The notes below the pieces were generated by a model. The model was not told where the DNA came from, did no database searches, and worked only from the letters and a program-made list of their open reading frames with translations. DNA of 64,000 nucleotides, taken from Sphingomonadaceae bacterium. Its GTDB lineage: Bacteria; Pseudomonadota; Alphaproteobacteria; Sphingomonadales; Sphingomonadaceae. The position numbers and the translations under genes are program-made. The stretch is taken from assembly GCA_947454135.1 (NCBI GenBank), contig CANGJI010000002.1, positions 47,655-111,654 on the forward strand. Reading direction: 5' to 3'. Positions 21,599 to 37,669 of this stretch are shown in pieces; positions within the stretch are counted from its first letter, which is position 1; each line of letters starts with the position of its first letter.

Positions 21599-22276
21599 GT
21601 GAAACTGCTCGTGGTCGAAGATGACGCTGCTCTGGCGGAGGCGCTGCTTGCCGCCTTCAACCGGGCCGATATCAATGCCGAATTCTGCGCGACCGGCAGC
21701 GGCGCGGCCGAACTGCTGTCGCTCTACGCTTTCGACGCAGCGGTGATCGATCGCGGATTGCCGGACATGGACGGGCTCGACCTCGTCCGCCTGGTGCGCC
21801 GCGGCGGGAACCGCATTCCCCTCATCATCCTCACCGCCCAATCGGATGTGGGTTCGCGGATCGACGGCCTCGACTCTGGCGCCGACGATTACCTTGGCAA
21901 GCCGTTCCTGTTTGCCGAACTGCTCTCCCGGCTCAACGCGGTCATGCGGCGGGCCGAGCAACGCCTTTCAAACACGATGGTCTGCGGCAACCTCGCCTTC
22001 GATGCGGACAGCCGGGTCGTGAGCGTCAATGCCGCCCCGATCGACCTTTCTCCGCGCGAGCGCACGCTGATCGAAATCCTGTTGCGATCACGGGGCAGGC
22101 CGCTCAACGCCGCCCAACTGGAAGACCGCCTGTGCGCGGCGAACGATGCGCTCACCGCCAACGCGCTCGAGGTGAGCATTCACCGCCTGCGCCGCAAGCT
22201 CAAGGCAGCCGGGTCCACGGCGCGGATCGCCTGGCTCCGCGGCCTCGGCTATTGCATCGAGGCTGATGCGGCATGA
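21599..22276 (+). CDS. OmpR-family response regulator (QseB/TctD-like)
   Basis: LLVVEDD, IDRGLPD, DDYLGKPF, NALEVSIHRLRRKL. GTG start. Confidence 0.9.
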   Translation: MKLLVVEDDAALAEALLAAFNRADINAEFCATGSGAAELLSLYAFDAAVIDRGLPDMDGLDLVRLVRRGGNRIPLIILTAQSDVGSRIDGLDSGADDYLGKPFLFAELLSRLNAVMRRAEQRLSNTMVCGNLAFDADSRVVSVNAAPIDLSPRERTLIEILLRSRGRPLNAAQLEDRLCAANDALTANALEVSIHRLRRKLKAAGSTARIAWLRGLGYCIEADAA

Positions 22277-23574: not shown

Positions 23575-23577
23575 CCC

Positions 23578-25026
23578 CTATTCGGCCTGTCCATTGGCCT
23601 GATAGAGCGCCACCGTATCAACCAGCCGTGCCGCCCACGCCGCGCTGCGCTGCAGACGGGCCTGCTGGACCGCCGCCTGCGACTGGAGCAGCATGAACGT
23701 CCCCACGTCGCCGAGCTGCTGCTGACGCTTCGTGAAGGTGTAGGACTGCTCGGCAGCCGCCAGCGCACGGACCGAAGCGTCCTCGGTCCGCGCATCGGCC
23801 TGGAGCCCGTTGATGGCATCGGACACGTCGACGAAGGCCTGCAACACGACCGTTCGGTACTGCGCCTTGCTTTGATCCAGCAGGGCCACAGCAGCCTGCT
23901 GCTGGCGGCGCAGCGCACCCGAATGGAACACCGGCGCGCTCACGCTCCCGATCAGCGACCAGAAGACATTGCCATCGGTGAACATGCTGGAAAACGCCTG
24001 CGCCGTTCCGCCGGCACTGGCGCTCAGCATCAGCGAGGGGAACCGGGCGGCCACGGCAGCGCGGGCATCCGCCGCAGCGCCTTCGACTGCGGCAGCGGCA
24101 GCCTGCACGTCGGGCCGGCCCTGCACCACGACGGCGGGAAGCGCGACAGGCACTTGCGGCGGCAGCACGAAACAGGTGCTCCCCGGCAGCGGCGGCAACG
24201 GCTCGCCCGGCGCGCGGCCAAGCAGCGCTGAGATAACCGCCCGCTGGTGGACTTCACTGCGCTGAAGCGCGGGCAGCGCGGCTTCCTGTGATGCGAGCGC
24301 GGCCTCCTGCGCGGCAACGTCGGCGTCGCCTGCTGCCCCCAGCGCGCGGCGCTGGCGGGTCAGCTCCAGCATCTGCCGTGCCGAACTGATCGATGTCTCG
24401 GTGGCGGCGATCTGGTCCTCCAGCGCCGCCCGGCTCACCGCCGCCACCACGAGATTGGCGGCCAGCGTCTGGCGCGCGGCAAGGAGATGCGCCGCCGCAA
24501 CCTTGGCCGCCGCCCGCGCCGACTGACGCCGCGCGCGCAGACCGCCGAACAGATCGAGCGGGTAGCTCACCGTTACTTGCGCGGTGTGCAGCGAGTAGAG
24601 CGTCTGCGTGGCATCGGCGAGCGGCGACTGCAGCGAATTGGGGCTTTGCGAGCGCTGGGCCGAGTACGACACGTCCACGCCCGGTGCCAGCGCCGCACCG
24701 GCAACCCCGGCCTGCGCCCGCGCCGCGCGCAAGGCGGCATCGGCGGCGGCGATGTCGTTGCTCCCGGCAAGGCCCTGATCGACGAGCTGGTCGAGAGCAT
24801 CGCAGCCGAACCGCGTCCACCATGCGCGGGGCGTCGTCTCGCCCACCGCGAAGGACTGGGCGGGAACCGCCCCGCCGCCCGCCGTGACGGTCGGTGCGGA
24901 AGCCCCGGCTACCGTTGGCAGCGGCGCAGTCGCGGCAGGATCGCCGATCCCGGCGCAACCGGCGGTCAGCGAACAGGCCGCCAAGGGCAGGGCTGCGTAC
25001 AGGACAGAGCGCAGGCGCGTGATCAT
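23578..25026 (-). CDS. RND efflux outer membrane factor (NodT/OprM lipoprotein)
   Basis: Lipobox LTAGC, WWTRFG-DALDQLV, SYPLDLFGG, YRTVVLQAFVDV. ATGA overlap with the RND gene. Confidence 0.88.
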   Translation of the reverse strand: MITRLRSVLYAALPLAACSLTAGCAGIGDPAATAPLPTVAGASAPTVTAGGGAVPAQSFAVGETTPRAWWTRFGCDALDQLVDQGLAGSNDIAAADAALRAARAQAGVAGAALAPGVDVSYSAQRSQSPNSLQSPLADATQTLYSLHTAQVTVSYPLDLFGGLRARRQSARAAAKVAAAHLLAARQTLAANLVVAAVSRAALEDQIAATETSISSARQMLELTRQRRALGAAGDADVAAQEAALASQEAALPALQRSEVHQRAVISALLGRAPGEPLPPLPGSTCFVLPPQVPVALPAVVVQGRPDVQAAAAAVEGAAADARAAVAARFPSLMLSASAGGTAQAFSSMFTDGNVFWSLIGSVSAPVFHSGALRRQQQAAVALLDQSKAQYRTVVLQAFVDVSDAINGLQADARTEDASVRALAAAEQSYTFTKRQQQLGDVGTFMLLQSQAAVQQARLQRSAAWAARLVDTVALYQANGQAE

Positions 25027-28000
25027 GCGGGCTCCCCTTCCTCGGTGTGGTGACCGATGTCGCGCCCGTGCGGCCCGCGATCTTCCGGCGGCAGGTGCAG
25101 CGAGAAGCGCTCGACCAGTGCCGGCAGCACCAGCAGGATCAGCAGGGGCGCCAGCGACATCCCGCCGACAACGACGAGGGCCAGCGGCTTCTGCACCTGG
25201 CTGCCGATGCCGTTGGACAGGGCGGCAGGAAGGAGGCCGATGGCGGCGACCAGACACGTCATCAGCACCGGCCGCATGCCGTTCGCGGTCGCGCGGCGGA
25301 CCGCCACGTGCCGCGTCGCGCCATCATCGACGACCTGGTTGAAGGTCGTGACGATCAGAATGCCGTCCATCACCGCAATGCCGAACAGCGCAACGAAACC
25401 GATCGCCGCCGAGATGCTGAACGGCGTCCCGGTCAGCGCCAGCGCCAGCACCCCGCCGACGATGGCCATGGGGATCGCGGAGAAGGCGAGGAACGTATCG
25501 CGGACCGAACCGAAGTTGGCGTAAAGCAGGATCAGGATCAGGATCAGACTGATCGGCACGACGATTTCCAGCCTCGAGATCGCGTTCTGCAGGTTGTCGA
25601 GCTCGCCGGCCCATTCGAGGTGATAGCCCGACGGGATCGTGACATGCTTGGCGATCCGCGCCTTCGCTTCACCAACGGCGCTGCCCAGATCGCGTCCGCG
25701 CACGCTGAACTTGATCGGGATGTAGCGCTCCTGATGCTCGCGGTAGATGAACGAGGCACCGGTGGTCAGGCGGATATTGGCGACTTCCGAGAGAGGCACC
25801 TGAATCTGGCCATTGCCGCCGGGTGCGGGCGCACCCACGGTGATCCGCCGAATGGCTTCGAGCGAACCGCGCTGGTCAGCCCTCAGACGGACGACGATCG
25901 GGAAGTGCCGGTCGGTCCCGGGCTCGTAGAGCTGGGCCACGCTGCTCCCGCCGATGGCGGCAGCGACAGTCTGGTTGATGTCGTCCGGCGTCAGTCCATA
26001 GCGCGAGGCGCGGGCGAGATCGACGTCGATGCGCACCGTTGGCTGGCCCAGCGACTGGAACACGCCGAGGTCCTCGATGCCGTTCACCTTGGCCATCTGC
26101 GCCTTGATCGCGTCTGCCGTCTTCTCCAGCACCGCAAGGTCGGGACCATAAAGCTTGATCGAGTTCGCGCCCTTAACGCCGGACGCGGCTTCCTCGACGT
26201 TGTCCTCGATGACCTGCGAGAACGAGAAGTCGACACCCGGATAGCGGTTACCCAGCTTACGCGACATGTCTTCGACCAGCTTGTCCTTGGTCATGCCCGC
26301 AGGCCACTCGCTGGCGGGCTTCAGCGGGACGAAATACTCCGCGTTGAAGAACCCGGTCGCGTCGGTGCCGTCATCGGGGCGGCCATGGGCGGAAAGGACC
26401 GCTTCGGTTTCCGGGTAGTTCGCCAGATCGCGCCGGATGGCATTGACGACAGGCTGGCCCGCCTCGAGGCTGATCGAAGGCGGCAGGCTGGCGCGGATGT
26501 AGAGGTTGCCTTCCTCCAGATGCGGCAGGAACTCGATGCCGAGCGAGCGCACGCCGATCCCCGCCAGCGCGAGCGCAATCGCAGCGCCGCCGAAGGTCAG
26601 CACGCGGTTGGCCTGCGCAAAGGCCGCCGCCGGTTCGTAGAGGCGGCGCAGCCACGCCACCAGCTTGGTCTCCACCTCGGAGAGACTGTCCGGCAGCAGG
26701 ATCGCCGAAAGCACCGGTGTCACCGTGAAGGTCGCGATGACGCCGCCGGTAATCGCGTAGGCATAAGTCTTCGCCATCGGACCGAAGATGTGCCCCTCGA
26801 CCCCCGTCAGCGTGAACAGCGGCAGGAAGCTGGCAATGATGATCGCAGCCGCGAAGAAGATGCCCCGGCTCACTTCGGATCCTGCATGGAGGATGGCGCT
26901 CATCCGGGTGGCCGGGCTGAAGTGGCCGTGGCCGGATTCGACCGCGACGGACCTTTCCACCATGTGCCGGAAGATGTTCTCGACCATGATCACGCTGGCA
27001 TCGACGACGAGACCGAAGTCCAGCGCGCCGACTGACAGCAGGTTGGCGCTTTCGCCCTGCGCGACGAGGATGAGGACCGCGATGGCAAGCGCAAAGGGAA
27101 TGGTCGCGGCAACGATCAGCGCGCTCCGCAGGTTGCCGAGGAAGATCCACTGCAACGCGAAGATCAGGATGATACCCGCCATCAGGTTCTCGAGCACCGT
27201 GTGCGTCGTCAGGCGGATGAGGTCCGAACGATCGTAGACGCGTTCCAGATGCACACCCGGCGGCAGCACACCCGAAGCGTTGATTTCGGCCACTTCCTTT
27301 TGCACCGCGAGGATCGTCGGCATCGACTTGGCGCCGCGCTGCATGAGGACGATGCCCTCGACGATATCATCGATGCCATTGTACCCGGCGATGCCGAGGC
27401 GCGGCATGTTGCTGATCGAAACCTTGGCGACATCCTTGAGCAGGACCGGCGTTCCGCCCGCCGTCCCGACCAGCACGTTCTCGATGGCCGAGGGCGACTG
27501 GATCAGGCCGACGCCGCGCACGATCGCCGCCTGCGAACCGAAGTTGATCGTCTGGCCGCCCACGTTGCTGTCGCTCTTCGCAAGCGACTGCATCACCTGC
27601 GCCATGGTCACCCCGTGGGCAACCAGCCGGTCGTTGTCGACCGTGACTTCATAGGCCCTGAGCTTGCCGCCCCAGCCGGTCACGTCGGCAACGCCCGGGA
27701 TGCGCTTGAACCGGCGCTGCAGGATCCAGTCCTGCAAGGTCTTGAGGTCCATAGGCGAATAGCCGTCGGGCGCGACGATGCGGTAGCGGTAGATTTCGCC
27801 GATCGGGCTCGTCGGCGAAAGGGTCGGCTGCGCACCGCCCGCCAGCGGCGGCAACTGCGACAGGCGGTTGATGACCTGCTGCTGCGCTTCCTGATAGGTC
27901 AGGTCGTAGCTGAACTGCACTTTCACGTCGGAGAGGCCGAACAGCGAGATCGCGCGCACCGTTGTCAGGTGCGGAATGCCCGCCATCGCCACCTCGATCG

Positions 28001-28199
28001 GCACGGTGACGTTGCGTTCCATCTCCTCGGCGGAGAGGCCCTGGGTCTGCGTGACGATCTCGACCATCGGCGGGACGGGATCGGGGTAGGCCTCGATATT
28101 GAGCGCCGCAAAGGCGAAGCCGCCTGCGACCAGCACCGCCGCGAAGACGGCAACGATCAGCAGCCGCTGCCGCAGCGCAAAGCGTAGCAGCCGGTTCAC
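25023..28199 (-). CDS. CusA/CzcA family (HME-type) RND efflux permease
   Basis: 1058 aa. IEAYPD, SLFGLS, SPIGEIYRY, GALDFGLVVDASVIMVENI, AAIGFVALFGIAVMDG, RPVLMT, GSQVQKPLA. Confidence 0.92.
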   Translation of the reverse strand: MNRLLRFALRQRLLIVAVFAAVLVAGGFAFAALNIEAYPDPVPPMVEIVTQTQGLSAEEMERNVTVPIEVAMAGIPHLTTVRAISLFGLSDVKVQFSYDLTYQEAQQQVINRLSQLPPLAGGAQPTLSPTSPIGEIYRYRIVAPDGYSPMDLKTLQDWILQRRFKRIPGVADVTGWGGKLRAYEVTVDNDRLVAHGVTMAQVMQSLAKSDSNVGGQTINFGSQAAIVRGVGLIQSPSAIENVLVGTAGGTPVLLKDVAKVSISNMPRLGIAGYNGIDDIVEGIVLMQRGAKSMPTILAVQKEVAEINASGVLPPGVHLERVYDRSDLIRLTTHTVLENLMAGIILIFALQWIFLGNLRSALIVAATIPFALAIAVLILVAQGESANLLSVGALDFGLVVDASVIMVENIFRHMVERSVAVESGHGHFSPATRMSAILHAGSEVSRGIFFAAAIIIASFLPLFTLTGVEGHIFGPMAKTYAYAITGGVIATFTVTPVLSAILLPDSLSEVETKLVAWLRRLYEPAAAFAQANRVLTFGGAAIALALAGIGVRSLGIEFLPHLEEGNLYIRASLPPSISLEAGQPVVNAIRRDLANYPETEAVLSAHGRPDDGTDATGFFNAEYFVPLKPASEWPAGMTKDKLVEDMSRKLGNRYPGVDFSFSQVIEDNVEEAASGVKGANSIKLYGPDLAVLEKTADAIKAQMAKVNGIEDLGVFQSLGQPTVRIDVDLARASRYGLTPDDINQTVAAAIGGSSVAQLYEPGTDRHFPIVVRLRADQRGSLEAIRRITVGAPAPGGNGQIQVPLSEVANIRLTTGASFIYREHQERYIPIKFSVRGRDLGSAVGEAKARIAKHVTIPSGYHLEWAGELDNLQNAISRLEIVVPISLILILILLYANFGSVRDTFLAFSAIPMAIVGGVLALALTGTPFSISAAIGFVALFGIAVMDGILIVTTFNQVVDDGATRHVAVRRATANGMRPVLMTCLVAAIGLLPAALSNGIGSQVQKPLALVVVGGMSLAPLLILLVLPALVERFSLHLPPEDRGPHGRDIGHHTEEGEPA

Positions 28200-29458
28200 T
28201 GGCCCAGCCCCGCCTCGTTCACGAAGAGCGCGCCGGCCGTAACGATGGTCTCACCGCCGCGCAGGCCGCTGAGGATCTCGATCCGCCCGCCCTGCTCTTC
28301 GCCGGTGCGCACCTGCCTGATGGCGAGGCGCTTGTCCGGCCGCAGGATCCACACCCGGGCGCTATCGCCTTCATGGATCACCGCCGTTGCCGGCACGAGA
28401 ATGCGCGTGCCGGGGCTGAAATGCTGGATGGAGAAGCTCGCGAACATCTGCGGCTTGAGCGCGCCATCGGGGTTCGCGATGGTCGCGCGCACCGGCAGGC
28501 GATGGGTCATCGGATCGAGCCCCGCGCCAACAAGGTCGATCACGGCGGTGAACTTGCGCCCCGGCCAGGCCGGGGTGACAACCTCGACCTTGTCGCCGAC
28601 ATGAACGCCGGACGCATCGCTTTCCGCGATCTGCGCCTGCAGCCACACGCGCGAGGCATCGGTGATCGTGAAGACGGGCTTGTCGCCGCCAACCGCCACA
28701 TACTGGCCGGGCGATACATCACGCAGCGCAACCGTGCCGCCAATGGGCGCGTGGAACGTGGTCACTTCATGCAGACCGCTGATCTCCCGCGCGCTTTCCA
28801 GCCGCTGGATCTCGCCCGCAGACTTGCCCAGAATGGCGAGCTTGTCGCGCGCGGCCCCCACCGCCGCCTCCGCGCTGCGCTCCTGCGCCTCTGCCGCGGC
28901 AAGATCGGTCAGCGCCTGCTGGTAGTCCTTGCGCGCGCCGCCGGCGGTCTCGGTCAGCGCCTTGGCCCGCTCAGCATTGCGGCGCGCATTGAGCAGGGCC
29001 GCCTGCGCGGACCGCCATGTCGCCTCGGCCGAGAACAGGGCACCGCGCGCATCGACGAAATCGGTGGTGCGGATCGTCAGCATCGGCTGGCCCGCCGTCA
29101 CCACCTGCCCCGCATCGACCAGCACCTTCATGACCTGCCCGGAATAGGGCAGCAGCACCGGCGTGCTGAGATCGCCGTCCGCCTCGATCGAACCCGAGGC
29201 CGTGGTGATCTGCTCGGCAAGGCCCGAACCCACCTTTTCGAAGGAGAGGGTCGCCAGCTGTTCCTGCGTCGGGCGGAACGTGCCCGGCGGATCGACGGGC
29301 GGCTGCTGGGGCGCGGGCTTGAGCAAGGTCAGGACGAGCCAGACGACAAGCGCCAGTGCGGCAAGGCCAGCTACCGTGAAGGCCAGCACACGCACTTGCT
29401 GCCGCGCGGGGAGCCGCGGCGCAGGAGGGGGAGTATCGTTCGAAGTAGAAGTGGTCAT
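28196..29458 (-). CDS. RND efflux periplasmic adaptor (CzcB/CusB-like MFP)
   Basis: N-terminal TM, GQVMKVLVDAGQVV, APIGGTV, NPDGALKPQMFA, GLRGGETIV. Confidence 0.88.
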   Translation of the reverse strand: MTTSTSNDTPPPAPRLPARQQVRVLAFTVAGLAALALVVWLVLTLLKPAPQQPPVDPPGTFRPTQEQLATLSFEKVGSGLAEQITTASGSIEADGDLSTPVLLPYSGQVMKVLVDAGQVVTAGQPMLTIRTTDFVDARGALFSAEATWRSAQAALLNARRNAERAKALTETAGGARKDYQQALTDLAAAEAQERSAEAAVGAARDKLAILGKSAGEIQRLESAREISGLHEVTTFHAPIGGTVALRDVSPGQYVAVGGDKPVFTITDASRVWLQAQIAESDASGVHVGDKVEVVTPAWPGRKFTAVIDLVGAGLDPMTHRLPVRATIANPDGALKPQMFASFSIQHFSPGTRILVPATAVIHEGDSARVWILRPDKRLAIRQVRTGEEQGGRIEILSGLRGGETIVTAGALFVNEAGLGQ

Positions 29459-29765: not shown

Positions 29766-32700
29766 TTACAACACGAAGTCGGCTTGGGTGAGCGCGATCT
29801 GGCCTGCCAGGTCAATCTGGAATTCGATTGTCGAGGCATTGCCGTTGGTGTCACCATAGACATGCGTGAGGTTGTTTGCGGCATCGTACGACCACCAGAT
29901 GCCCCGCGCGGTCGCGGTGTTGCCGCCCCACTGGAAGGCCTGGTCACCGGCCGCAGACGAGTTCGGATCGATGGCAGAAAGCCCGATCTTGTCGGTCCCG
30001 TGCACGAAGTCGGTGATCCGGTCGAGTGCTGACGGCGTCGAGTCTGCCACGGCGCTGTACAGGAACGTGTCTGCACCTGCCCCGCCGGTCAGCACGTCCG
30101 CGCCGCTTCCGCCATTGATGGTGTCGTTGCCCGCGCCGCCATCGATGGTGTTGGCAGCCGTGCTGCCGGTCAGGGTATCATTGAACCCTGAACCGAGCAG
30201 ATTTTCGATCGTCGCGAGCGTATCGGTCCCGGCTCCGACCGTATTCTGCGCGGCGGTCAGAGCGAGGCTGACAGTCACCCCAGCAGTTGCACTGGCATAG
30301 GATGCGGTATCGGTACCGGCACCGCCTGTCAGCGTGTCATTGCCGGCTCCGCCATCGAGGACATCGTTGCCCGCGCCGCCATCGAGGACGTTGTTGCCCG
30401 CGTCTCCGCTCAGCGTATCGCCGGACCCCGAGCCCGTTACATTCTCGAAGCCCGAGAGCGTATCGGTACCGCTGCCACCCGTATTCTGCGCAGCGGTCAG
30501 CGACAGGTTCACCGTCACACCCGCATTTGCACTGGCATAGGTCAGCGTATCGGTACCGGCGCCGCCAATGAGCGTGTCGTTACCCGCGCCACCATCGATC
30601 GTGTCGTTGCCCGCGCCGCCATCGATCGTGTTCGCAGCATTGCTGCCAGTCAGGACGTCATTGAACCCTGAACCGATGAGGTTTTCGATTGTCGCGAGCG
30701 TGTCGGTCCCGGCTCCGCCCGTGTTCTGCGCGCTGGTCGTGGCAAGGCTGACAGTCACGCCAGCAGTTGCGCTGGCATAAGTTGCGGTGTCGGTACCGGC
30801 CCCGCCTGTCAGCGAGTCGTTACCGGCTCCGCCATCGAGGACATCGTTGCCCGCGCCGCCATCGAGCGTATCGTTGCCGGCGAGGCCCGAGATCACGTCA
30901 TTGCCGGACGTTCCGGTAATGGTGTCTGCGCCGGACGTGCCGGTGCGGACATCATCGACGCCATTGATCGTGATGGTGATCGCCTGTCTGGTGCCATCAG
31001 TTGCGGTAACGGTCACCGTGTCGGTCAAGGTTTGGCCGGTGCTGAGGCCATCGACAGCCGCATTGTTGTTCGCAAGGACATAAGTCCAGCTGCCGTTGGC
31101 AGCCAGCGAGAGCGAGCCGTAAGTGCTTGTCACCGACTGGGCGGCAAAGGCTGGCGAGTTATCGATGTCCGTGACGCTGAGCGTGCCGGTTACCTGCGAG
31201 GTGCCATTGAGCACGCTCGATTCCGCCACTGTTCCCGCAAGGTTGCCTGCAAAGACAGCGGCGTCGTTAACGGCTGCGAGCGTGAACGACTGCGTCCCCG
31301 CCACGCTGCCGCCCTTCCCGTCGCTGACGGTGAAGTTCAGCGTCACCGGGCCATTGTAGTTGGCGTCAGGGGTGAAGGTGAACGTGCCATTGCCGTTATC
31401 GCTGATAACGCCGTGGTTTGCGCTGAGCCCCGAAATCGAGAGCGTATCGCCCTCGGGGTCGGTATAGCCCTTCAGCAGGTTTGCCGCCGACACGGTGTAG
31501 GCAGTATCCTCGGCACCTGCAGCAAGCACAGCTTTCGCGCCCGTCAGTACCGGTGCCTCGTTCACATTGGTTACCGAGACCGCAATCGCCTGGGTGTCGG
31601 TCAGCGATCCGTCAGATACCTGGACAACGACGTCGTAGACGTTGTTGGCGCCGGCATCGGCAGGTGCCTCGTAGTTTGGCGCTGCCTTGAAGCTCAGCGC
31701 CCCAGTAGCGGCATTGATCTGGAACAGAGCCGCATCGGCGCCGCCGGAGATCGAGTAGCTCAGGGTCGCCCCGGCATCGGGATCGGTTGCGGTGACAGTC
31801 GCCACGGCCGTGCTGTTTTCGGCAATCGACGCTGTCGCTGTCGCACCGCCGCCACCGCTGGTGATGACAGGGTTTTCATTCAGGTTCGTAACGGTAACCG
31901 CAATCGCCTGAGTGTCGGTCAGCGATCCGTCAGACACCTGGACAACGACATCGTAGACGTTGTTGGCGCCGACATCGGTGGGTGCTTCGAAGTTAGGCGC
32001 AGCCTTGAAGATCAGCGCACCCGTTGCGGCATCGATCTGGAACCGGGCAGCGTCTGCACCGCCGGAGATCGAGTAGCTCAGGCTCGTCCCAGGATCGAGG
32101 TCGGTCGCTGAAACCGTGGTCACTGCCGTGCTGTTTTCGGCAATCGACACTGCCGCAGTCGCACCGCCGCCATTGCTGGTGATGACAGGCGCATGGTTGG
32201 CATAGGTGACGGTCGTGTCGGCGAACTTGAGCGTATTGATGCCGAGCACCAGATCCTGCCCGTCCCGGCCGGCCACGCTGTCGGTGACTTTCAGGACCTG
32301 GACCGTGTTGGCGTTCGCGTTTTGCACGAGCATCCGGGTCGAGAGATCATAATAGGTCACCACGATCGTATAGTCGGCCAGATTGCCGGTGAAGACCGCA
32401 AGGTCGTTACCGCTGGCAGTGCTTGCGACACCGGCGCTGGAGGAATTGCCCAGCACGATGTCCTTGAACTGATCGGAACGCAGCAATTCGGTGAAATGGT
32501 CCTGATAGGCGGACGCGCCTGTCAGACCGAACTTGGCGTTCACCTCGTCGATCAGCCCCTTGCCATCGAGCGCGGCATTCCACGCCACGCGATGGGTGGC
32601 GCCGGCGTAGCGGGCATCGAGAACGTCGAGGGATTCCGTGGAACCATGCGCCAGATCGTACTCGGCGCTGTGCACATAGGCGCTGGCATCGCCGTACTTG

Positions 32701-35700
32701 CCGATCAGCGTATCCAGCCGGACCGATCCGCCGATGAGGATGTCGTTGCCGCTACCGCCCTGGATCGTATCATCGCCGTTGCCGCCGATCAGCCAGCCAG
32801 CCGCGCCGTTGGTATTGTCACCGGTCAGGGTGTCACCGCCGGCAGAGCCGATCAAGCCTTCGATCTGCGTGCTGGGAACCTGAATGAGGTTGCCATTGAC
32901 CGCGGCGCCCGGAGTGGTCTGGTTGCCAAGGTTGAAGGTCACCCCGCCCGGACGGATCGTGTTGTCCGAGAAATCGATGATATCAAAGCCGGTGGTGCCG
33001 GGCTTGTTGCCCGAATCGTCCACGCCGTCACCGCCCAGCACTTCGTCCGAACCGATGTTCATCGCGCCGGTGGTGTCACCGGGCCGAAGGATGTCATCGC
33101 CCGCACCGCCGAACAGCTGGTCCTGATCGGCGCCGCCCGAAAGCACGTCGTCGCCGTTATCACCGTAGAGAATGTCGCCGCCGGAGCCGCCGTCGACATA
33201 GTCGTTGCCGTCATCGCCGTGGGTAAACGGATCGGTATCCTGATCGCCGTAGACCTTGTCATCGCCGCTGCCGGCCGACAGCTTGTCGATGCCGATGCCG
33301 CCAGAGATGAAGTCGTTGCCCGATCCGCCGACCACCTGGTCAGCGCCGTTGATGTCGGTGCCCGACGATTCGCCGTAGAGGAAGTCGTCGCCTGCGCCGC
33401 CGTCGATCAGGTCGGGGTTGTCACCGCCGTAGATCGTGTCGGACCCGGCATCGCCGTACAGGCGGTCGATCCCGTATCCGCCAGAGATGATGTCGTTGCC
33501 GCCTTCGCCATAGACGGTATCGTCGCCGCCGCCGGCATAGAGCATGTCGCGGAACGCGGTGCCCGCGATCACTTCGCTGGATTCAGAGCCCGAGTTCGGC
33601 GTGCCATCGAGATTGACGCCATCATTCAGCTTGTTGGCGCCGGTATCCGCGCCGTTGTCGAGCGTGCGGGTGTCGCGGATATAGGCATAGTTGTCGACCT
33701 TGATGATCGAGCCATCCAGCGCCTGCGTGCCGCCACCGTTGGAATAGATACCAACGCCTTCGCCGTTGTTGGCATAGTTGTTCGCGGCCGTGGCATTGGC
33801 CGGATTGTTGTTCCACGTCAGCGCACCGATGCCGTTATGGGCGCCAAAGGTGTTATCCGTGGTTACCAGAACGCCATTCTGATCAACGACGTCACCATAC
33901 TTGTGGTTGTTGCTGGTCGTCTGCGTTTCGGTGTTACCGCCATTGGCGGCGATGAACACTTCCCGGTGAGCGCCGAAATCATAGTACTTGTCGGCATAAC
34001 CGAAGATGTTGCCGTTCAGGTGGGTGAGCCCGGTGTTGCGCTCAACGAGATCCTTCAGCTGGCCGTTCGCCACTTCCTGGCCGAACTGCTGACCGGCAAG
34101 GCGATAGAGATAATAGAACCGGTCGCCATCCATCAGCGATTCGATCTGGGTCACGAACACCAGGTCGAAGGTTTCGCCGAGCAGGCCGCCCGGCTGATGG
34201 ACTTCCGCGAGACCGCCCAGCCAGGTATCGATCTGGTTGAAGCCCTGGTCGCCGCCGTCAAGGAAGTTGATGGCGAAGGTCAAGCCATCGGCGAGGGTCG
34301 CATTCTGGTCGCCGGTGGCGAGCTTCGCCAGAGCGTCGCCCGAGGCTGTGGCAGACGAATTGGCCTCGCTGTAGTTGCCATTGGCCAGATCGACGATCGC
34401 CTGGGCCCGCGCCAGCGCGTCGGCGTTGTTCTGGGCATTGCCCGTGCCATTGCTGAACGAATAGGCTGCAATGAAGTTCGCCAGCGATTCCGGGTGCTGC
34501 ATGTTCTGCCCGAAATTGCTCCAGCTGGTGTAGCGCGTCAGGCCGATCGCTTCGCGGAAGTCATTCAGGGTCGGGATCCCGATATCACGGCCACGGGCAA
34601 TGTTGATCGCCGCCAGATCGAGCGGTTGGCCGAGCAGACCCTGGTTCAGCGCCGGGGTGACGAATTCGTCCACCTCGTTCATCTGCTGGTGCGTCATGCC
34701 CAGCAGGATCGCCGAAGGGCCGGACAAGGCATACTGATCCGGGTTCAGAAAGGCATCGCGCAGCGCATAGCCCATGATCTTGCCGGTCAGGCCGCCATTG
34801 GGATCGATCGTGTCGATCGTTTCGCGCAAGGTGGAGTGGCCGAAGCGGAACGCCACCTGCGAATACTCCAGCGTCACACCCGGGTTCTTGTCGGGCGAAT
34901 AGCCGACGAATTCCTGGATGTTCGGCGAGACGTTGCGAGCATACTGGTCGACCGCCGAGTGCTGGTATTCCATTTCCACGATCAGCTTGACCGCGGCGAA
35001 AGTCTTGTCGGTATCCCAGTTGATCGTGCCATTGGCCGTCACATAGTCGCCGAGAGCGTTCTCGTAGTGGCCGTTCACCACATGGACGCCATTTGCCAGC
35101 GCGGCGCCATCGACCGCCGCCACGGCATTCTGGAAGCCGTGCAGGTTGTCGGTGCTGCCCGTAACGATGGCATCGCGGTGCAGCGCGTCGATGAAGTTAT
35201 CGACCTGGTAGTTGTGCTCTTCATGGAACACGTGGTGGATCGAGGTGAGGCCGAAGTTCTCGTTCACGCGGCCGTCGCCGGCGATGTAGTGATCGCCAAC
35301 CGAAGCCATCAGGATTTCGCTCACGGCATCGTGCGTGGCGGTGAAATCACCGCCCGCGCCGTGGGAGAAGTCCTTGATCGAGAAGTTGCTGAAATCGACC
35401 CAGAACGACAGCGCGCTGGCACCGGTCAGGTTGGTTCCTGCCGGAATGGACGAAGACGGCCCGGTGGGCAGCGCGGTCCCCAGATGCAGGGTCAGAACGC
35501 CGTTGACCATGCCGAACGTGTCGCCCGGGCGGGCAGGGTTGTTCGCGATCTTGTTGCCGAGGAACTGGATCGCCGCATCAACCGCAGCCTGTTCCGCCGC
35601 ATTGCCCTTGTGCAGGTGCGCCGCATCGAAGCGCGGATTGTTGTCGAGCAGCAAGGCCGAACCGGTGGTGCCGCCGGTCAGCTTGCCGCTGGCATCGCGG

Positions 35701-37118
35701 TTGCGCAGATCCAGCACGTCTTCCCAGCTCAGCGCGTCGCGGCCGGTGGCAATCACGGCGGCGCGCAGTTCGTTCAGCGTCGGCAGCGTATCGTGCGTGG
35801 TCGTCCCGTCGGGCTTGGTCCAGGCCTGCGCCAGCGTGGTGCCGTCCAGCATGCGGATGCCGGCGTGATACTTGCCGGTAACGGGATCAAGCACCCATTC
35901 GCGCAGCAGATCGGTGACCTGCTGGTGCGAGCCATAAGTCTGGCTCTGATCGATGAACGGCGAGGTGTGATCGAGATACTGCGGGCCGGTTGAGGTGACG
36001 CTGTCCACATTGGCGCGGCTGATCGTGATCGAGGTGGTCGGCCGGCCGTCCGGACCGATCATGCCATAGAGCGGATCGCTCGAATCGAGCGTGATCTTGA
36101 TCGTCTTGCCCGACGAACCCTTGCCGATGAAGTCCAGCCCGTGATCGAAGAACTGGCCGAACAGCACGAAGAAGCCGTTCGAGGGCGAAACGCCGGGATT
36201 GAGGCCGCCGATGAAGTGATCGCCCAAGTTGGCATCGGCGCCCGCAGTCACCGAACCGGTCGACGCGGCACCGGCCGAGCCGATGAAGCGAGCCTGGGTA
36301 TCCACCTGACCAAGGCCGCCATCGGCCACGGTTTTCAGCATGCCCCAGTCGAGCACCGTGGCGACACCATTGGCGTCGTAGTAGATTTCATTGGGCGCGT
36401 GGGCGGCATGCGCCGGATCGGCCTGGTGATTGGCCCAGGTGTCGTAAACCACCCCGGCGGTCGTCGTCAGCAGGCTGATCGCGCGCGGCGAGGAATCGAC
36501 AACGTTCTGGATGATGATCGGCTGCTTGGTGCCGTCGGTCAGCGTGGTGCCGGTCGGGTCCGCCAGGATCGCATACTGCGCGGTCGGTGCGGCCTTGTAG
36601 TAATTGATGAAGTACGGCTGCTGGGCGGCGGGCGAGAGGGTGTCGAAGTCGGCCGCCGTCTTGCCGGGATTTGCGGCCAGATAGACCTTCACTGCCGCAT
36701 CGTGCGCCGCAGGCAGCGTGTTGAACGCCGCCACCATGCGCGGGAAGATCTGGTCGACCGCGCCGTACTGCCACAGCAGGCCGGACAGGTTGTTGTTCTG
36801 GCCCGAGGGATTGCGGATGCCCGAGAGATCCACGTTCGTGAGGTAGGACGGGCCGAAGAGGTTCAGCGCCGTCGCGGTGTCGACGACCTGCGACGTCCCG
36901 GTCAGCCCGAGCGAGCTCAGGCCGGCCTGCGTGATCGTGCGGATGGGCGCATCATAGAGCAGCGTGCCCAGCCCGTCGTAAGCGCTGGTCGTGCCATCCC
37001 AATTCAGCAGCGCGTTGTGGTTGGCATCGAACAGGGGGCGGAACGTTACCTGAGCGAGGATGAACGCGATATCGGTTCCGTTAAGGACGAACGGCTTGAG
37101 ATAGTCATTGTAAGTCAT
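29766..37118 (-). CDS. Giant secreted animal-type heme peroxidase (peroxicin, MopA/PepA-like) with RTX, cadherin, VCBS repeats
   Basis: 2450 aa from ATG 37118 with AGGGGGA SD. FGQFFDHGLD, IDQSQTYGS, GDGRVNEN, FRFGH, NIARGRDIG, DGDRFYY; many GGxGxDxLx nonapeptides; serralysin-like C-terminus DRITDFVHGTDKIGLSAID. Confidence 0.9.
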   Translation of the reverse strand: MTYNDYLKPFVLNGTDIAFILAQVTFRPLFDANHNALLNWDGTTSAYDGLGTLLYDAPIRTITQAGLSSLGLTGTSQVVDTATALNLFGPSYLTNVDLSGIRNPSGQNNNLSGLLWQYGAVDQIFPRMVAAFNTLPAAHDAAVKVYLAANPGKTAADFDTLSPAAQQPYFINYYKAAPTAQYAILADPTGTTLTDGTKQPIIIQNVVDSSPRAISLLTTTAGVVYDTWANHQADPAHAAHAPNEIYYDANGVATVLDWGMLKTVADGGLGQVDTQARFIGSAGAASTGSVTAGADANLGDHFIGGLNPGVSPSNGFFVLFGQFFDHGLDFIGKGSSGKTIKITLDSSDPLYGMIGPDGRPTTSITISRANVDSVTSTGPQYLDHTSPFIDQSQTYGSHQQVTDLLREWVLDPVTGKYHAGIRMLDGTTLAQAWTKPDGTTTHDTLPTLNELRAAVIATGRDALSWEDVLDLRNRDASGKLTGGTTGSALLLDNNPRFDAAHLHKGNAAEQAAVDAAIQFLGNKIANNPARPGDTFGMVNGVLTLHLGTALPTGPSSSIPAGTNLTGASALSFWVDFSNFSIKDFSHGAGGDFTATHDAVSEILMASVGDHYIAGDGRVNENFGLTSIHHVFHEEHNYQVDNFIDALHRDAIVTGSTDNLHGFQNAVAAVDGAALANGVHVVNGHYENALGDYVTANGTINWDTDKTFAAVKLIVEMEYQHSAVDQYARNVSPNIQEFVGYSPDKNPGVTLEYSQVAFRFGHSTLRETIDTIDPNGGLTGKIMGYALRDAFLNPDQYALSGPSAILLGMTHQQMNEVDEFVTPALNQGLLGQPLDLAAINIARGRDIGIPTLNDFREAIGLTRYTSWSNFGQNMQHPESLANFIAAYSFSNGTGNAQNNADALARAQAIVDLANGNYSEANSSATASGDALAKLATGDQNATLADGLTFAINFLDGGDQGFNQIDTWLGGLAEVHQPGGLLGETFDLVFVTQIESLMDGDRFYYLYRLAGQQFGQEVANGQLKDLVERNTGLTHLNGNIFGYADKYYDFGAHREVFIAANGGNTETQTTSNNHKYGDVVDQNGVLVTTDNTFGAHNGIGALTWNNNPANATAANNYANNGEGVGIYSNGGGTQALDGSIIKVDNYAYIRDTRTLDNGADTGANKLNDGVNLDGTPNSGSESSEVIAGTAFRDMLYAGGGDDTVYGEGGNDIISGGYGIDRLYGDAGSDTIYGGDNPDLIDGGAGDDFLYGESSGTDINGADQVVGGSGNDFISGGIGIDKLSAGSGDDKVYGDQDTDPFTHGDDGNDYVDGGSGGDILYGDNGDDVLSGGADQDQLFGGAGDDILRPGDTTGAMNIGSDEVLGGDGVDDSGNKPGTTGFDIIDFSDNTIRPGGVTFNLGNQTTPGAAVNGNLIQVPSTQIEGLIGSAGGDTLTGDNTNGAAGWLIGGNGDDTIQGGSGNDILIGGSVRLDTLIGKYGDASAYVHSAEYDLAHGSTESLDVLDARYAGATHRVAWNAALDGKGLIDEVNAKFGLTGASAYQDHFTELLRSDQFKDIVLGNSSSAGVASTASGNDLAVFTGNLADYTIVVTYYDLSTRMLVQNANANTVQVLKVTDSVAGRDGQDLVLGINTLKFADTTVTYANHAPVITSNGGGATAAVSIAENSTAVTTVSATDLDPGTSLSYSISGGADAARFQIDAATGALIFKAAPNFEAPTDVGANNVYDVVVQVSDGSLTDTQAIAVTVTNLNENPVITSGGGGATATASIAENSTAVATVTATDPDAGATLSYSISGGADAALFQINAATGALSFKAAPNYEAPADAGANNVYDVVVQVSDGSLTDTQAIAVSVTNVNEAPVLTGAKAVLAAGAEDTAYTVSAANLLKGYTDPEGDTLSISGLSANHGVISDNGNGTFTFTPDANYNGPVTLNFTVSDGKGGSVAGTQSFTLAAVNDAAVFAGNLAGTVAESSVLNGTSQVTGTLSVTDIDNSPAFAAQSVTSTYGSLSLAANGSWTYVLANNNAAVDGLSTGQTLTDTVTVTATDGTRQAITITINGVDDVRTGTSGADTITGTSGNDVISGLAGNDTLDGGAGNDVLDGGAGNDSLTGGAGTDTATYASATAGVTVSLATTSAQNTGGAGTDTLATIENLIGSGFNDVLTGSNAANTIDGGAGNDTIDGGAGNDTLIGGAGTDTLTYASANAGVTVNLSLTAAQNTGGSGTDTLSGFENVTGSGSGDTLSGDAGNNVLDGGAGNDVLDGGAGNDTLTGGAGTDTASYASATAGVTVSLALTAAQNTVGAGTDTLATIENLLGSGFNDTLTGSTAANTIDGGAGNDTINGGSGADVLTGGAGADTFLYSAVADSTPSALDRITDFVHGTDKIGLSAIDPNSSAAGDQAFQWGGNTATARGIWWSYDAANNLTHVYGDTNGNASTIEFQIDLAGQIALTQADFVL
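30115..30870 (-). repeat. Intragenic duplication in the RTX region (about 270-bp units, 480-bp offset)
   Basis: Sequence from 30121 closely matches sequence from 30601. Confidence 0.8.
31560..32190 (-). repeat. Tandem cadherin-domain duplication (318-bp period)
   Basis: CAATCGCCTG.GTGTCGGTCAGCGATCCGTCAGA at 31583 and 31901. Confidence 0.8.
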
Positions 37119-37595
37119 GGATTTCCCCCTGTGCCGACCCGCGCGCGCCAAGATTTTGAGCAACCAAAACCTCAGGTGGAAGACCACAATCGCCGCCAGC
37201 TTGCGGAGGGCTTAACTTCCAGAAATCTGGCAGCAATAAAACTTAACGTTCGATTGGAACCATTTTTCTATTTTCTGCTGGGAAATAACTACAAGGACTT
37301 ATTACTTTGGCTTGCACTGCTCCATAATGAGACGGGTACAATGAGGATGGTGCATGTTCATGGTTAATATAAGCCGAGCTGGTCAGGATAGTCCGGCCAG
37401 TACTGCCTCATCCCCGCGCGCTCGCCCCGGTACTGGCCGCAGGGATCAGCGCGCCGGATGCGATCCTTCATCCGGAACCATCAATGGCCCCCGGATGCGG
37501 ACACATCGATCCACACCGGTGCAGGGCAGTTTATCAGGAAACCGATGAGCCAATGCCGTTTGCCGAATGAAATCGGAGCGCTTCGAACGGTGAGA

Positions 37596-37669
37596 TGGAG
37601 GCCCGAGCCGGAATCGAACCGGCGTAAACGGATTTGCAGTCCGGTGCGTAACCACTCCGCCATCGGGCC
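37596..37669 (-). tRNA. tRNA-Cys (GCA)
   Basis: GGCCCGA/TCGGGCC acceptor stem, anticodon loop CTGCAAA, GGTTCGATTCC T-arm, encoded CCA; 74 nt. Confidence 0.97.

What the first reader, a model, noticed from the sequence alone, without database searches (positions are those of the whole stretch)
29766..37118. 2450-aa heme peroxidase-adhesin hybrid, candidate Mn(II) oxidase or surface halo/peroxidase
Seen: one peroxidase-cyclooxygenase domain with distal GQFFDH, RVNE and proximal FRFGH, then RTX nonapeptides, two cadherin repeats, a cadherin-like domain, a VCBS repeat, more RTX and a T1SS-type C-terminus; no signal peptide. Asp and Glu equivalent to the heme ester-forming residues of mammalian peroxidases appear present, so covalent heme is possible. 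Known relatives: MopA (Mn oxidation, Erythrobacter/Aurantimonas) and PepA (Pseudomonas putida). The adhesin stalk suggests an enzyme tethered to surfaces or matrix. No ABC-type T1SS is in the window.
Basis: partly seen in the sequence, partly recalled or inferred. Interest (0 to 1): 0.8.

Follow-up and report, generated by a model that had tools for sequence, protein, structure and literature searches.

The report
Secreted giant bacterial haem peroxidase
This is an intact gene for a 2450-residue, calcium-binding haem peroxidase that the bacterium most likely exports through a type I secretion system; it belongs to a known enzyme family, but to a large, unstudied branch next to the manganese-oxidising MopA/PepA enzymes, so its substrate is still open.

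Summary
One minus-strand ORF (window 29766-37118, 2450 aa) encodes an animal-type haem peroxidase head, two RTX blocks, two cadherin repeats, a Cadherin_5/Big_9 domain, a VCBS domain and a serralysin-type C-terminal secretion region.

All catalytic and haem-ester residues (Q322, D325, H326, R617, E620, H761, N839) are present. They are invariant in 47 relatives.

It is a "long peroxicin" (Family 5 of the peroxidase-cyclooxygenase superfamily), but not a MopA/PepA orthologue:
- It is only 31-39% identical to them.
- It lacks their PERCAL calcium inserts.
- It falls in a separate, well-supported sister clade of Alpha- and Betaproteobacteria, with over 1800 database relatives and no studied member that I could find.

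The clade has two domains of its own with no known fold or family: an N-terminal ~100 aa domain and domain "U" (aa 1463-1648).

The missing secretion system is on another contig (PrtD-type ABC, HlyD, TolC), next to a CotA-like multicopper oxidase with RTX repeats. That oxidase shares a 73-77% identical cadherin module with the peroxidase. In many relatives the ABC gene lies directly downstream of the peroxidase.

Mn(II) oxidation is plausible but unproven. The "tethered adhesin" idea has no direct support. Verdict: a new member of a known kind, of moderate interest.

The parts
29766..37118 (-). Whole CDS, 2450 aa plus stop: a long-peroxicin-type secreted haem peroxidase
   Evidence: ORF list and translation. 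The identical protein is on record (P0002).
37124..37129 (-). Shine-Dalgarno-like GGGGGA, 5 nt before the ATG at 37118
   Evidence: Read directly from the sequence.
36828..37118 (-). Clade-specific N-terminal domain (aa 1-97) with motif LKPFVxNxxDxxFxxxQVxFxPLFD. Fold and function are unknown.
   Evidence: No Pfam hit. AF2 model pLDDT 88.6. No PDB fold neighbour. A profile of it finds only 126 representatives among 1.84 billion proteins, nearly all at a protein's N-terminus.
33939..36827 (-). Peroxidase-cyclooxygenase (animal haem peroxidase) domain, aa ~98-1060. It is about 950 aa long because of four large insertions (about aa 130-300, 410-608, 645-735 and 886-960).
   Evidence: Pfam An_peroxidase in 3 stretches. 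PDB sequence hits to 8s6c, 6erc, MPO and LPO. Foldseek top hits are the same family.
36141..36158 (-). Distal motif G321-Q322-F-F-D325-H326: halide-binding Gln, ester-forming Asp and distal His
   Evidence: Aligned to QWGQFLDHDL of 8s6c. Invariant in 61 of 61 sequences across three clades.
35259..35270 (-). R617-V-N-E620: catalytic Arg and ester-forming Glu. The next residue is N621, so there is no MPO-type Met sulfonium link.
   Evidence: Aligned to GDVRSNEQ of 8s6c. Invariant.
34836..34850 (-). F757-R-F-G-H761: proximal haem ligand His. Its H-bond partner N839 and R842 lie in the motif NIARGRD.
   Evidence: Aligned to YRVGH and NIQRGRD of 8s6c. Invariant.
33537..33938 (-). Linker, aa 1061-1194, low-complexity and rich in Asn/Gly
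   Evidence: No Pfam hit. Low pLDDT. Conserved in 19 of 36 clade members.
32733..33536 (-). RTX block 1, aa 1195-1462, with 8 canonical nonapeptides
   Evidence: HemolysinCabind. Motif scan. Present in 36 of 36 full-length clade members.
32175..32732 (-). Domain 'U', aa 1463-1648: conserved across the clade, no known family
   Evidence: No significant Pfam hit and no PDB sequence hit. Present in 36 of 36 full-length clade members at a median 34.5% identity.
31566..32174 (-). Two tandem cadherin repeats, aa 1649-1851 (106-aa units, 84% identical at the DNA level)
   Evidence: Pfam Cadherin x2. DNA repeat D3. 73-77% identical to the cadherin module of the C42 multicopper oxidase.
31272..31565 (-). 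Cadherin_5 / Big_9 Ig-like domain, aa 1852-1949
   Evidence: Pfam 1.3e-33.
30945..31271 (-). VCBS / Cadherin_4-type domain, aa 1950-2058
   Evidence: NCBIfam TIGR01965 4.1e-23. Pfam Cadherin_4 and Big_9.
30060..30944 (-). RTX block 2, aa 2059-2353: three 80-aa (240-nt) repeat units, 9 canonical nonapeptides
   Evidence: HemolysinCabind. DNA repeat D2. Motif scan.
29769..30059 (-). C-terminal T1SS secretion-signal region, aa 2354-2450, ending in ...ADFVL
   Evidence: Peptidase_M10_C (serralysin C-terminus) 2.7e-19. The acidic-plus-hydrophobic end is shared with the genome's serralysin-like RTX protease, which ends ...LDLVL.

Best explanation
The gene encodes an extracellular, Ca2+-dependent haem peroxidase of the 'long peroxicin' kind (Family 5 of the peroxidase-cyclooxygenase superfamily). 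It belongs to a PERCAL-free, single-head clade that is sister to the MopA/PepA clade.

Proposed mechanism:
1. (Inferred.) The protein is made without a signal peptide. It stays unfolded at low cytoplasmic Ca2+ because its RTX blocks are disordered.
2. (Inferred from shown parts.) Its serralysin-type C-terminus (...ADFVL) is recognised by the genome's only complete T1SS, a PrtD-type ABC, a HlyD adaptor and a TolC channel on contig C42. Export is C-terminus first.
3. (Inferred.) Outside the cell, Ca2+ folds the two RTX beta-rolls and stiffens the cadherin/Ig-like modules. The N-terminal ~1650-aa conserved module emerges last, folds and takes up haem b.
4. (Residues shown, chemistry inferred.) With H2O2, D325 and E620 can form ester links to the haem, as in lactoperoxidase. 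H326, R617 and Q322 make Compound I, and H761 with N839 holds the iron.
5. (Inferred.) Because N621 replaces the MPO methionine, the expected range is one-electron donors and Br-/I-/SCN-, not chloride. One-electron donors could include Mn(II) complexes and phenolics.

The physiological substrate is not determined.
For: - Domains and scores.
- Active-site alignment to solved peroxidases.
- The same residues are invariant in 47 clade members and 14 reference domains.
- Family definition (bacterial ORFs of 1600-3300 aa, hemolysin-type Ca2+ repeats): Zamocky et al. 2015, PMC4420034.
- Tree: the window clade has SH-aLRT 99 and the MopA/PepA clade 99.
- T1SS components score above or near the curated NCBIfam cut-offs: PrtD 599.7 bits against 510, HlyD 329.9 against 208.7, TolC 214.4 against 225 (slightly below).
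- In relatives the T1SS ABC gene lies directly downstream on the same strand, at a median of 155 nt. This holds for 16 of 43 loci with enough flank; 24 of 43 have one somewhere in the locus.
- The C-termini of two of the genome's three RTX proteins (this peroxidase and the serralysin-like protease) share the acidic-plus-hydrophobic ending.
- The protein has no cysteine.
- MopA relatives lack signal peptides yet are found in culture supernatant (PMC13689576).
Against: - No experiment has been done on this protein or on any member of its clade that I could find.
- Haem loading after T1SS export is unexplained for the whole family.
- The AF2 model of the head is only moderate (pLDDT 63.7) and is poor around the haem pocket.
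- The T1SS is not linked to the gene here, and the C42 contig ends 50 nt beyond the ABC gene, so its upstream context is unknown.
- The TolC match is just under its curated cut-off.
- The genome is a 93% complete MAG.
Confidence: 0.8

Rival explanations
1. It is specifically a Mn(II) oxidase like MopA. It would oxidise Mn(II) to Mn(III) outside the cell, possibly together with the secreted CotA-like multicopper oxidase.
For: - MopA enzymes are the closest studied relatives, and their heads alone oxidise Mn(II) (PMC6247904).
- The active-site residues are the same, including the His-rich helix H628/H632/H635 shared with the MopA clade.
- The genome also encodes a T1SS-linked CotA-like MCO-RTX, and CotA-type MCOs have been reported as Mn oxidases.
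- The two enzymes share a 73-77% identical cadherin module.
- Judged from isolate names in the record titles only, several clade members may come from sand-filter or similar samples, and several are Hyphomicrobiaceae.
Against: - Identity to MopA/PepA is only 31-39%, and the protein sits in a separate clade on long branches.
- It has no PERCAL inserts.
- The authors of a MopA survey themselves warn that homology to MopA does not show Mn oxidation.
- Even for MopA the mechanism is disputed: NAD+ is required and H2O2 has no effect.
- CotA has a very high Km for Mn.
Confidence: 0.3
2. It is a (pseudo)haloperoxidase that makes HOBr, HOI or HOSCN outside the cell, for competition, signal quenching or organohalogen formation.
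For: The distal Gln, the Asp and Glu ester residues, and the absence of the MPO Met match the LPO / LspPOX-type active site. Peroxidases of this superfamily with two ester links oxidise Br-, I- and SCN-; this rests on PMC4420034 and my own knowledge of LPO and LspPOX.
Against: No halogenation-related genes are nearby. The carriers are mostly freshwater and soil bacteria, where bromide and iodide are scarce (record titles). No member of the clade has been assayed.
Confidence: 0.2
3. It manages extracellular reactive oxygen. It would either remove H2O2 or run an oxidase cycle that produces superoxide, as proposed for the Roseobacter AzwK-3b enzymes.
For: The Roseobacter animal haem peroxidases are proposed to alternate between superoxide production and peroxidase activity (summarised in PMC6247904). 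The clade's spread across many aerobic heterotrophs fits a general role.
Against: The Roseobacter enzymes lie in the other (PERCAL) clade. There is no direct evidence here.
Confidence: 0.2
4. The peroxidase forms one functional 'metal-redox block' with the adjacent CusA/CzcA-type RND pump and two-component system, next to tRNA-Cys.
For: - The downstream genes on the same strand are an RND adaptor, a CusA/CzcA-family pump (863.6 bits, above the 701 cut-off) and a NodT outer-membrane factor. A two-component pair follows on the other strand.
- The gene lies just after tRNA-Cys, in a region that is not syntenic in congeners.
Against: - The neighbourhood is not conserved. Only 4 of 71 related loci have any RND pump within 10 kb (26-35% identity), and the recurrent neighbours there are a T1SS and a HisKA_3/LuxR pair.
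- In congeners the RND operon lies on other contigs than the tRNA-Cys locus.
- A 307-nt gap separates the two genes.
Confidence: 0.1
5. It is mainly a surface adhesin and the peroxidase head is vestigial.
For: Cadherin, Big_9 and VCBS modules are typical of RTX adhesins.
Against: - Every catalytic residue is invariant across 47 clade members, while the cadherin/Ig modules are the variable part: present in 10, 0 and 0 of 36 relatives.
- There are only 4-5 Ig-like modules.
- There is no recognisable retention module and no LapG.
Confidence: 0.03

Closest known systems
MopA of Erythrobacter sp. SD-21 (UniProt A5PER4, 2138 aa), a Mn(II)-oxidising animal haem peroxidase
   Same: One peroxidase head followed by hemolysin-type Ca2+ repeats. 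No signal peptide. The distal Q/D/H, catalytic R/E, proximal H and Asn are the same, as is the large insert between the distal and Arg motifs. It also lacks the MPO Met.
   Different: Only 30.7% identity over 1024 aa. It sits in the other clade. MopA has 3 PERCAL inserts and this protein has none. This protein has its own N-terminal domain; whether MopA has domain U could not be tested, because the reference sequences are truncated. Activity is unknown here.
PepA (PP_2561) of Pseudomonas putida KT2440 and MopA (PputGB1_3353) of P. putida GB-1
   Same: Long peroxicins with RTX C-termini. They are secreted without a signal peptide, and the PepA head binds haem and Ca2+ and has peroxidase activity. 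34-40% identity in the core.
   Different: They have two peroxidase heads, 5+5 PERCAL inserts and about 3600 aa. They lie in a different clade.
C-terminal ('B') peroxidase domains of two-head proteins such as Aurantimonas manganoxydans MopA (Q1YMS2-B)
   Same: PERCAL-free. They share short motifs in the big insert (LPTL.EL, LLLD.NP), which I read from the sequences.
   Different: 27-31% identity. They form the most distant clade in the tree, on a branch of 2.4. They have W instead of R844 and lack H632.
Solved short relatives: the Cyanobacterium TDX16 peroxidase (PDB 8s6c), Dictyostelium DdPoxA (6erc), and lactoperoxidase/myeloperoxidase
   Same: Same fold family and active-site motifs.
   Different: They are about 500-600 aa with no big inserts, no RTX repeats and no stalk. 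Only fragments align (E 2e-33 at best).
T1SS RTX substrates of the PrtD/AprD (serralysin) type
   Same: RTX beta-roll blocks followed by a Peptidase_M10_C-like C-terminus that ends in an acidic residue plus hydrophobic residues. The cognate ABC is PrtD-type.
   Different: The cargo is a ~1650-aa oxidoreductase module, not a protease or lipase. The transporter is encoded in trans.

Membership tests
Peroxidase-cyclooxygenase superfamily (Pfam An_peroxidase PF03098) | Profile match above the curated cut-off | tested here: met
   189.2 bits against a cut-off of 25, in 3 stretches. It is the only such gene in the genome.
Peroxidase-cyclooxygenase superfamily (Pfam An_peroxidase PF03098) | Distal Q-x-x-D-H motif and the catalytic R-x-x-E motif | tested here: met
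   Q322, D325, H326, R617 and E620 align to solved structures. They are invariant in 61 sequences.
Peroxidase-cyclooxygenase superfamily (Pfam An_peroxidase PF03098) | Proximal His hydrogen-bonded to Asn | tested here: met
   H761 (FRFGH) and N839 (NIARGRD) are placed by alignment. The geometry was not checked, because the model is poor in that region.
Peroxidase-cyclooxygenase superfamily (Pfam An_peroxidase PF03098) | Binds haem, with covalent ester links | not testable with these tools
   Needs a haem stain, pyridine hemochrome assay or mass spectrometry of peptides.
Long bacterial peroxicins (Family 5; Zamocky et al. 2015) | Bacterial ORF of about 1600-3300 aa with a peroxidase domain plus hemolysin-type Ca2+ repeats | tested here: met
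   2450 aa, with 17 canonical nonapeptides and 14 Pfam stretches. Definition taken.
Long bacterial peroxicins (Family 5; Zamocky et al. 2015) | PERCAL Ca2+ motif G-x-D-G-x-x-[GN]-[TN]-x-D-D inside the peroxidase domain (frequent, not strictly required) | tested here: not met
   No strict or relaxed match. 46 of 47 clade members also have none.
MopA/PepA clade (experimentally studied Mn-oxidising or peroxidase-active long peroxicins) | Groups with MopA/PepA domains in a phylogeny | tested here: not met
   It forms a separate sister clade. Both clades have SH-aLRT 99, and the stem branches are 1.13 and 1.42 long.
MopA/PepA clade (experimentally studied Mn-oxidising or peroxidase-active long peroxicins) | Mn(II) to Mn(III) oxidation activity | not testable with these tools
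   Needs a leucoberbelin blue or pyrophosphate-trapping assay.
Type I secretion (RTX) substrate | RTX repeats upstream of a non-cleaved C-terminal signal, and no N-terminal signal peptide | tested here: met
   The N-terminus was read directly, and it is a conserved folded domain.
Type I secretion (RTX) substrate | Cognate ABC, MFP and OMP present in the genome | tested here: met
   C42 carries PrtD (599.7 bits), HlyD (329.9 bits) and TolC-type (214.4 bits, just under the 225 cut-off) genes.
Type I secretion (RTX) substrate | Genetic linkage to the transporter | tested here: inconclusive
   Not linked in this genome. Linked in 16 of 43 related loci, directly downstream, and in 24 of 43 within the locus.
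LapA/SiiE/MpIBP-type RTX adhesins | N-terminal retention module, a long array of Ig-like repeats, and LapG/LapD control | tested here: not met
   The N-terminal domain has no PDB fold neighbour. There are only 4-5 Ig-like modules. No Peptidase_C93 (LapG) is in the genome.

The most novel reading that the evidence does not exclude
The PERCAL-free clade may be a functionally distinct, unstudied lineage of extracellular oxidases. It is marked by its own N-terminal domain and the conserved unknown domain U.

In this bacterium the peroxidase may work as one half of a two-enzyme secreted oxidative system with the T1SS-linked CotA-like multicopper oxidase. The near-identical cadherin module carried by both would act as a common 'address' that places them on the same surface or matrix. 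One possible use is a Mn(II) to Mn(III) to Mn(IV) relay, or oxidation of humic or phenolic material.
Probability: 0.15. Interest if true: 0.6.

Novelty: new member of a known kind. Interest (0 to 1): 0.3.

Why it matters
Genome surveys count any MopA homologue as a potential Mn(II) oxidase. This analysis shows that a large share of such hits in freshwater and soil Alpha- and Betaproteobacteria belong to a separate, PERCAL-free clade. The carriers include Hyphomicrobium, Polaromonas, Methylotenera, Bradyrhizobium and sphingomonads. I found no studied member of this clade, so their function should not simply be copied from MopA.

If one member were characterised, it would show whether this clade contributes to environmental Mn cycling, halogenation or extracellular ROS chemistry. 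Cultured carriers exist, for example Fulvimarina endophytica strain 85, Polynucleobacter kasalickyi VK13 and Bradyrhizobium sp. 132.

For this gene by itself the result is ordinary: an intact, typical member of that clade.

Tried and rejected
- PERCAL motif search, strict and relaxed: nothing found.
- Direct repeats of the tRNA-Cys 3' end that would mark an integrated island: none. Only the gene's own internal repeats were found.
- Compositional evidence for transfer: GC3 of the gene is 0.79, against 0.77-0.87 in its neighbours. The lower overall GC comes mostly from amino-acid composition, so I make no compositional claim.
- AF2 model of aa 1-1150: only pLDDT 63.7 and poor around the haem pocket. 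I used it only to confirm the fold family.
- Fold search of the N-terminal domain: no neighbour.
- PDB sequence search of domain U: no hit.
- Sigma-70 promoter and terminator scans upstream and downstream of the gene: nothing useful. The one promoter-like site (29854-29827) lies inside the gene's 3' end.
- Supplement of Medina et al. 2018: not held.
- The idea that the window's OmpR-type regulator is the clade's conserved regulator: not supported. The best match to that cluster in this genome is elsewhere.
Full report
**Observation.** The window holds one very long ORF on the minus strand, 29766-37187 from the first GTG.
- The likely start is the ATG at 37118, which has a GGGGGA site 5 nt upstream. 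Homologues align from residue 1-7 of that form.
- Pfam finds An_peroxidase (1.6e-55, three stretches), 14 HemolysinCabind stretches (7.9e-66), two Cadherin domains, Cadherin_5/Big_9 (best stretch aa 1852-1947) and Peptidase_M10_C (best stretch aa 2334-2449).
- NCBIfam adds a VCBS domain at aa 1977-2058. A piecewise re-scan confirms each module and finds nothing for aa 1-330 or aa 1455-1660.
- The protein has no cysteine. Its N-terminus does not look like a signal peptide; I read this from the sequence and ran no predictor.
- The identical protein is on record from an ENA metagenome assembly (ERZ27280183), so the genome is a MAG. It is 3.39 Mb in 151 contigs and 93% complete.

**Active site.** A search against PDB sequences aligns the distal, Arg/Glu, proximal and NIARGRD motifs with the Cyanobacterium TDX16 peroxidase (8s6c), Dictyostelium DdPoxA, lactoperoxidase and myeloperoxidase.
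- The residues are Q322, D325, H326, R617, E620, H761, N839 and R842. They are invariant in 47 clade members and in 14 reference domains from the literature.
- The residue after E620 is N621 in all of them, so the myeloperoxidase Met-sulfonium link is absent. Two ester links (Asp, Glu) are possible, as Medina et al. noted for MopA.
- The LPO-type Ca2+ site is only partly kept: S386, F388, D390 and S392 are present, but G327 replaces the Asp after the distal His. This is true of all long peroxicins compared.
- The domain is about 950 aa long because of four insertions.
- An AF2 model of aa 1-1150 is only moderate (pLDDT 63.7). Its Foldseek hits are all members of the superfamily, but weak.

**Family and phylogeny.** More than 1800 proteins match the first 1150 aa. 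The best are 55-65% identical over the full length, and nearly all combine PF03098 and PF00353 with variable Calx-beta, cadherin or Ig domains. Carriers named in genome records are Alpha- and Betaproteobacteria: Sphingomonadaceae, Novosphingobium, Bradyrhizobium, Tardiphaga, Fulvimarina, Devosia, Aestuariivirga, Hyphomicrobium, Polaromonas, Rhodoferax, Methylotenera and Polynucleobacter.
- This is the architecture Zamocky et al. call long peroxicins. Medina et al. place MopA in that group.
- For a real comparison I took the reference peroxidase domains printed in Text S3 of Santamaria-Hernando et al. 2012, with the organism key.
- BLAST gives only 30.7% identity to Erythrobacter SD-21 MopA over 1024 aa. 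It gives 34-40% to the P. putida GB-1 and KT2440 domains, 38% to the Aurantimonas N-terminal domain, and 27-31% to the PERCAL-free C-terminal 'B' domains.
- A 61-sequence maximum-likelihood tree resolves three groups: the B domains; the PERCAL-bearing MopA/PepA clade (SH-aLRT 99); and the window's clade (47 rows, SH-aLRT 99). The last two are sisters on long stems.
- The PERCAL pattern G-x-D-G-x5-D-[DE] occurs 1-5 times in every MopA/PepA domain. It occurs zero times in 46 of 47 members of the window's clade.
- The protein is therefore a long peroxicin, but not a MopA/PepA orthologue. I found no paper on a member of this clade. Surveys of 'MopA homologues' would count it, and their authors warn that homology alone does not show Mn oxidation.

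**What is conserved in the clade.** I compared segments of the protein with 36 full-length clade members.

| Segment | Found in (of 36) |
|---|---|
| N-terminal domain | 27 |
| Peroxidase head | 34 |
| RTX block 1 | 36 |
| Domain U, aa 1463-1648 (unannotated) | 36, median 34.5% identity |
| RTX block 2 | 36 |
| Cadherin pair | 10 |
| Cadherin_5 domain | 0 |
| VCBS domain | 0 |

- The invariant functional unit is therefore roughly aa 1-1650, and the 'adhesin' part is the exchangeable part.
- The N-terminal ~100 aa fold confidently (pLDDT 88.6) but have no PDB neighbour. A profile of them finds only 126 representatives among 1.84 billion proteins, nearly all at residues ~4-110 of long peroxicins or of fragments.
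- Domain U has no Pfam or PDB match.

**Secretion.** No T1SS gene lies in the window. The genome has one complete system on contig C42, all on one strand:
- a PrtD-type ABC (599.7 bits, above the cut-off);
- a HlyD adaptor (329.9 bits, above the cut-off);
- a TolC-type channel (214.4 bits, just below the cut-off);
- followed by a 1602-aa RTX protein.

That protein's N-terminal 650 aa are a CotA-like three-domain multicopper oxidase (PDB hits to CotA at 1e-55 to 1e-57). Only one other strong RTX protein exists in the genome, a serralysin-like protease on C66. The peroxidase ends in ...ADFVL and the protease in ...LDLVL; this is the acidic-plus-hydrophobic ending typical of PrtD-type substrates, by my own knowledge.

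In related loci the best homologue of the C42 ABC gene lies directly downstream of the peroxidase gene on the same strand, at a median gap of 155 nt. It is often followed by a small RTX/Cadherin_5 protein and the MFP. A HisKA_3 kinase and a LuxR-type regulator lie upstream. Among 43 loci with enough downstream sequence, 16 have the ABC gene within 1.5 kb and 24 have one somewhere in the locus. Both linked and unlinked arrangements are therefore common. MopA relatives are secreted without a signal peptide.

**Tethering.** There are only 4-5 Ig-like modules, no recognisable N-terminal retention module and no LapG-type protease in the genome. Nothing supports a LapA-like anchoring mechanism. One fact does bear on localisation: the two cadherin repeats are 73-77% identical to the cadherin module (aa 744-860) of the C42 multicopper oxidase. 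That is closer than to any orthologue's cadherin repeats, where the maximum is 64%. It points to recent module exchange within the genome, and possibly to a shared binding target for the two secreted oxidoreductases. The shared-target idea is inference.

**Genomic setting.**
- The gene follows tRNA-Cys (37596-37669, minus strand) after a 477-nt, 54% GC spacer.
- Downstream on the same strand are an RND adaptor, a CusA/CzcA-family pump (863.6 bits, above the cut-off) and a NodT-type outer-membrane factor. An OmpR-type two-component pair follows on the other strand.
- This neighbourhood is not conserved in relatives.
- Within the genus (Sphingomonadaceae, from the title of locus L021), only 3 of 25 species carry the gene. 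None of 16 species from other families of the order carries it.
- In three congeners the DNA beyond tRNA-Cys is unrelated to this region.
- The gene therefore sits in a variable region and has a patchy distribution. Even so, I found no att-like repeat and no clear codon-composition signal.

**Function.** What is shown: an intact peroxidase active site under strong conservation, RTX and secretion-signal features, and a matching T1SS in the genome. What is inferred: export, extracellular Ca2+-driven folding, haem loading, ester-link formation and the substrate.
- Mn(II) oxidation is the best-known activity of the nearest studied enzymes, and the co-occurring secreted multicopper oxidase is suggestive. 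The distance to MopA, the absence of PERCAL and the unsettled MopA mechanism keep this at about 0.3.
- Bromide/iodide/thiocyanate oxidation and extracellular ROS chemistry are equally open.

**Verdict.** The protein is a typical member of a large, unstudied sister clade of MopA/PepA, so it is a new member of a known kind. Interest is moderate to low for this gene alone. It is somewhat higher for the clade and for the possible pairing with the multicopper oxidase.

Noticed in passing
own genome contig C42:17924-28394 (locus L092:5925-16437, minus strand): The genome's only complete T1SS operon (PrtD-type ABC, HlyD adaptor, TolC-type channel) is followed by a 1602-aa RTX protein. The N-terminal ~650 aa of that protein are a CotA-like three-domain multicopper oxidase, and it also has a cadherin and a VCBS module. 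This looks like a secreted laccase or Mn-oxidase candidate. The contig ends 50 nt beyond the ABC gene.
   Followed up: partly
window 31566-32174 (-) and L092 aa 744-860 of the multicopper oxidase: The peroxidase's cadherin repeats are 73-77% identical to the cadherin module of the multicopper oxidase. That is higher than to any orthologue's repeats (maximum 64%). It suggests module exchange within the genome, or a shared binding target.
   Followed up: partly
window 32175-32732 (-), aa 1463-1648: Domain 'U' has no Pfam or PDB match, yet it is present in all 36 full-length clade members compared. Together with RTX block 1 it belongs to the conserved core, not to the variable stalk.
   Followed up: partly
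window 36828-37118 (-), aa 1-97: A confidently predicted small N-terminal domain (pLDDT 88.6) has no structural neighbour in the PDB. It was found only at the N-terminus of this peroxicin clade or of fragments (126 representatives in 1.84 billion proteins).
   Followed up: yes
window 21599-29458: A heavy-metal-type RND efflux operon (adaptor, CusA/CzcA-family pump, NodT-type outer-membrane factor) lies on the minus strand, with a divergent OmpR-type regulator and histidine kinase. Its position next to the peroxidase is not conserved in relatives.
   Followed up: partly
window 37119-37669: tRNA-Cys (GCA) at 37596-37669 (-) is followed by a 477-nt, 54% GC spacer before the peroxidase gene. In three congeners the DNA on this side of tRNA-Cys is unrelated, so this is a variable locus. 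No att-like repeat was found.
   Followed up: partly
related loci L020-L090 (e.g. L076:20225-22372, L061:8629-9294, L086:7114-8556): Many relatives carry a conserved cassette: a HisKA_3 kinase and LuxR-type regulator upstream, then peroxidase, T1SS ABC, a small (~715-750 aa) RTX/Cadherin_5 protein, and the MFP. The window's copy has lost all of these neighbours.
   Followed up: partly
own genome contig C66:13017-14768 (-): A 583-aa serralysin-like M10 metalloprotease with RTX repeats and a ...LDLVL C-terminus. It is the third predicted substrate of the single T1SS.
   Followed up: no
locus L088 (CAMDRJ010000118.1): A contig labelled 'MAG: Klebsiella pneumoniae' carries a partial homologue of this alphaproteobacterial-type peroxicin (44% identity). 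It is probably a binning or labelling error in that MAG.
   Followed up: no
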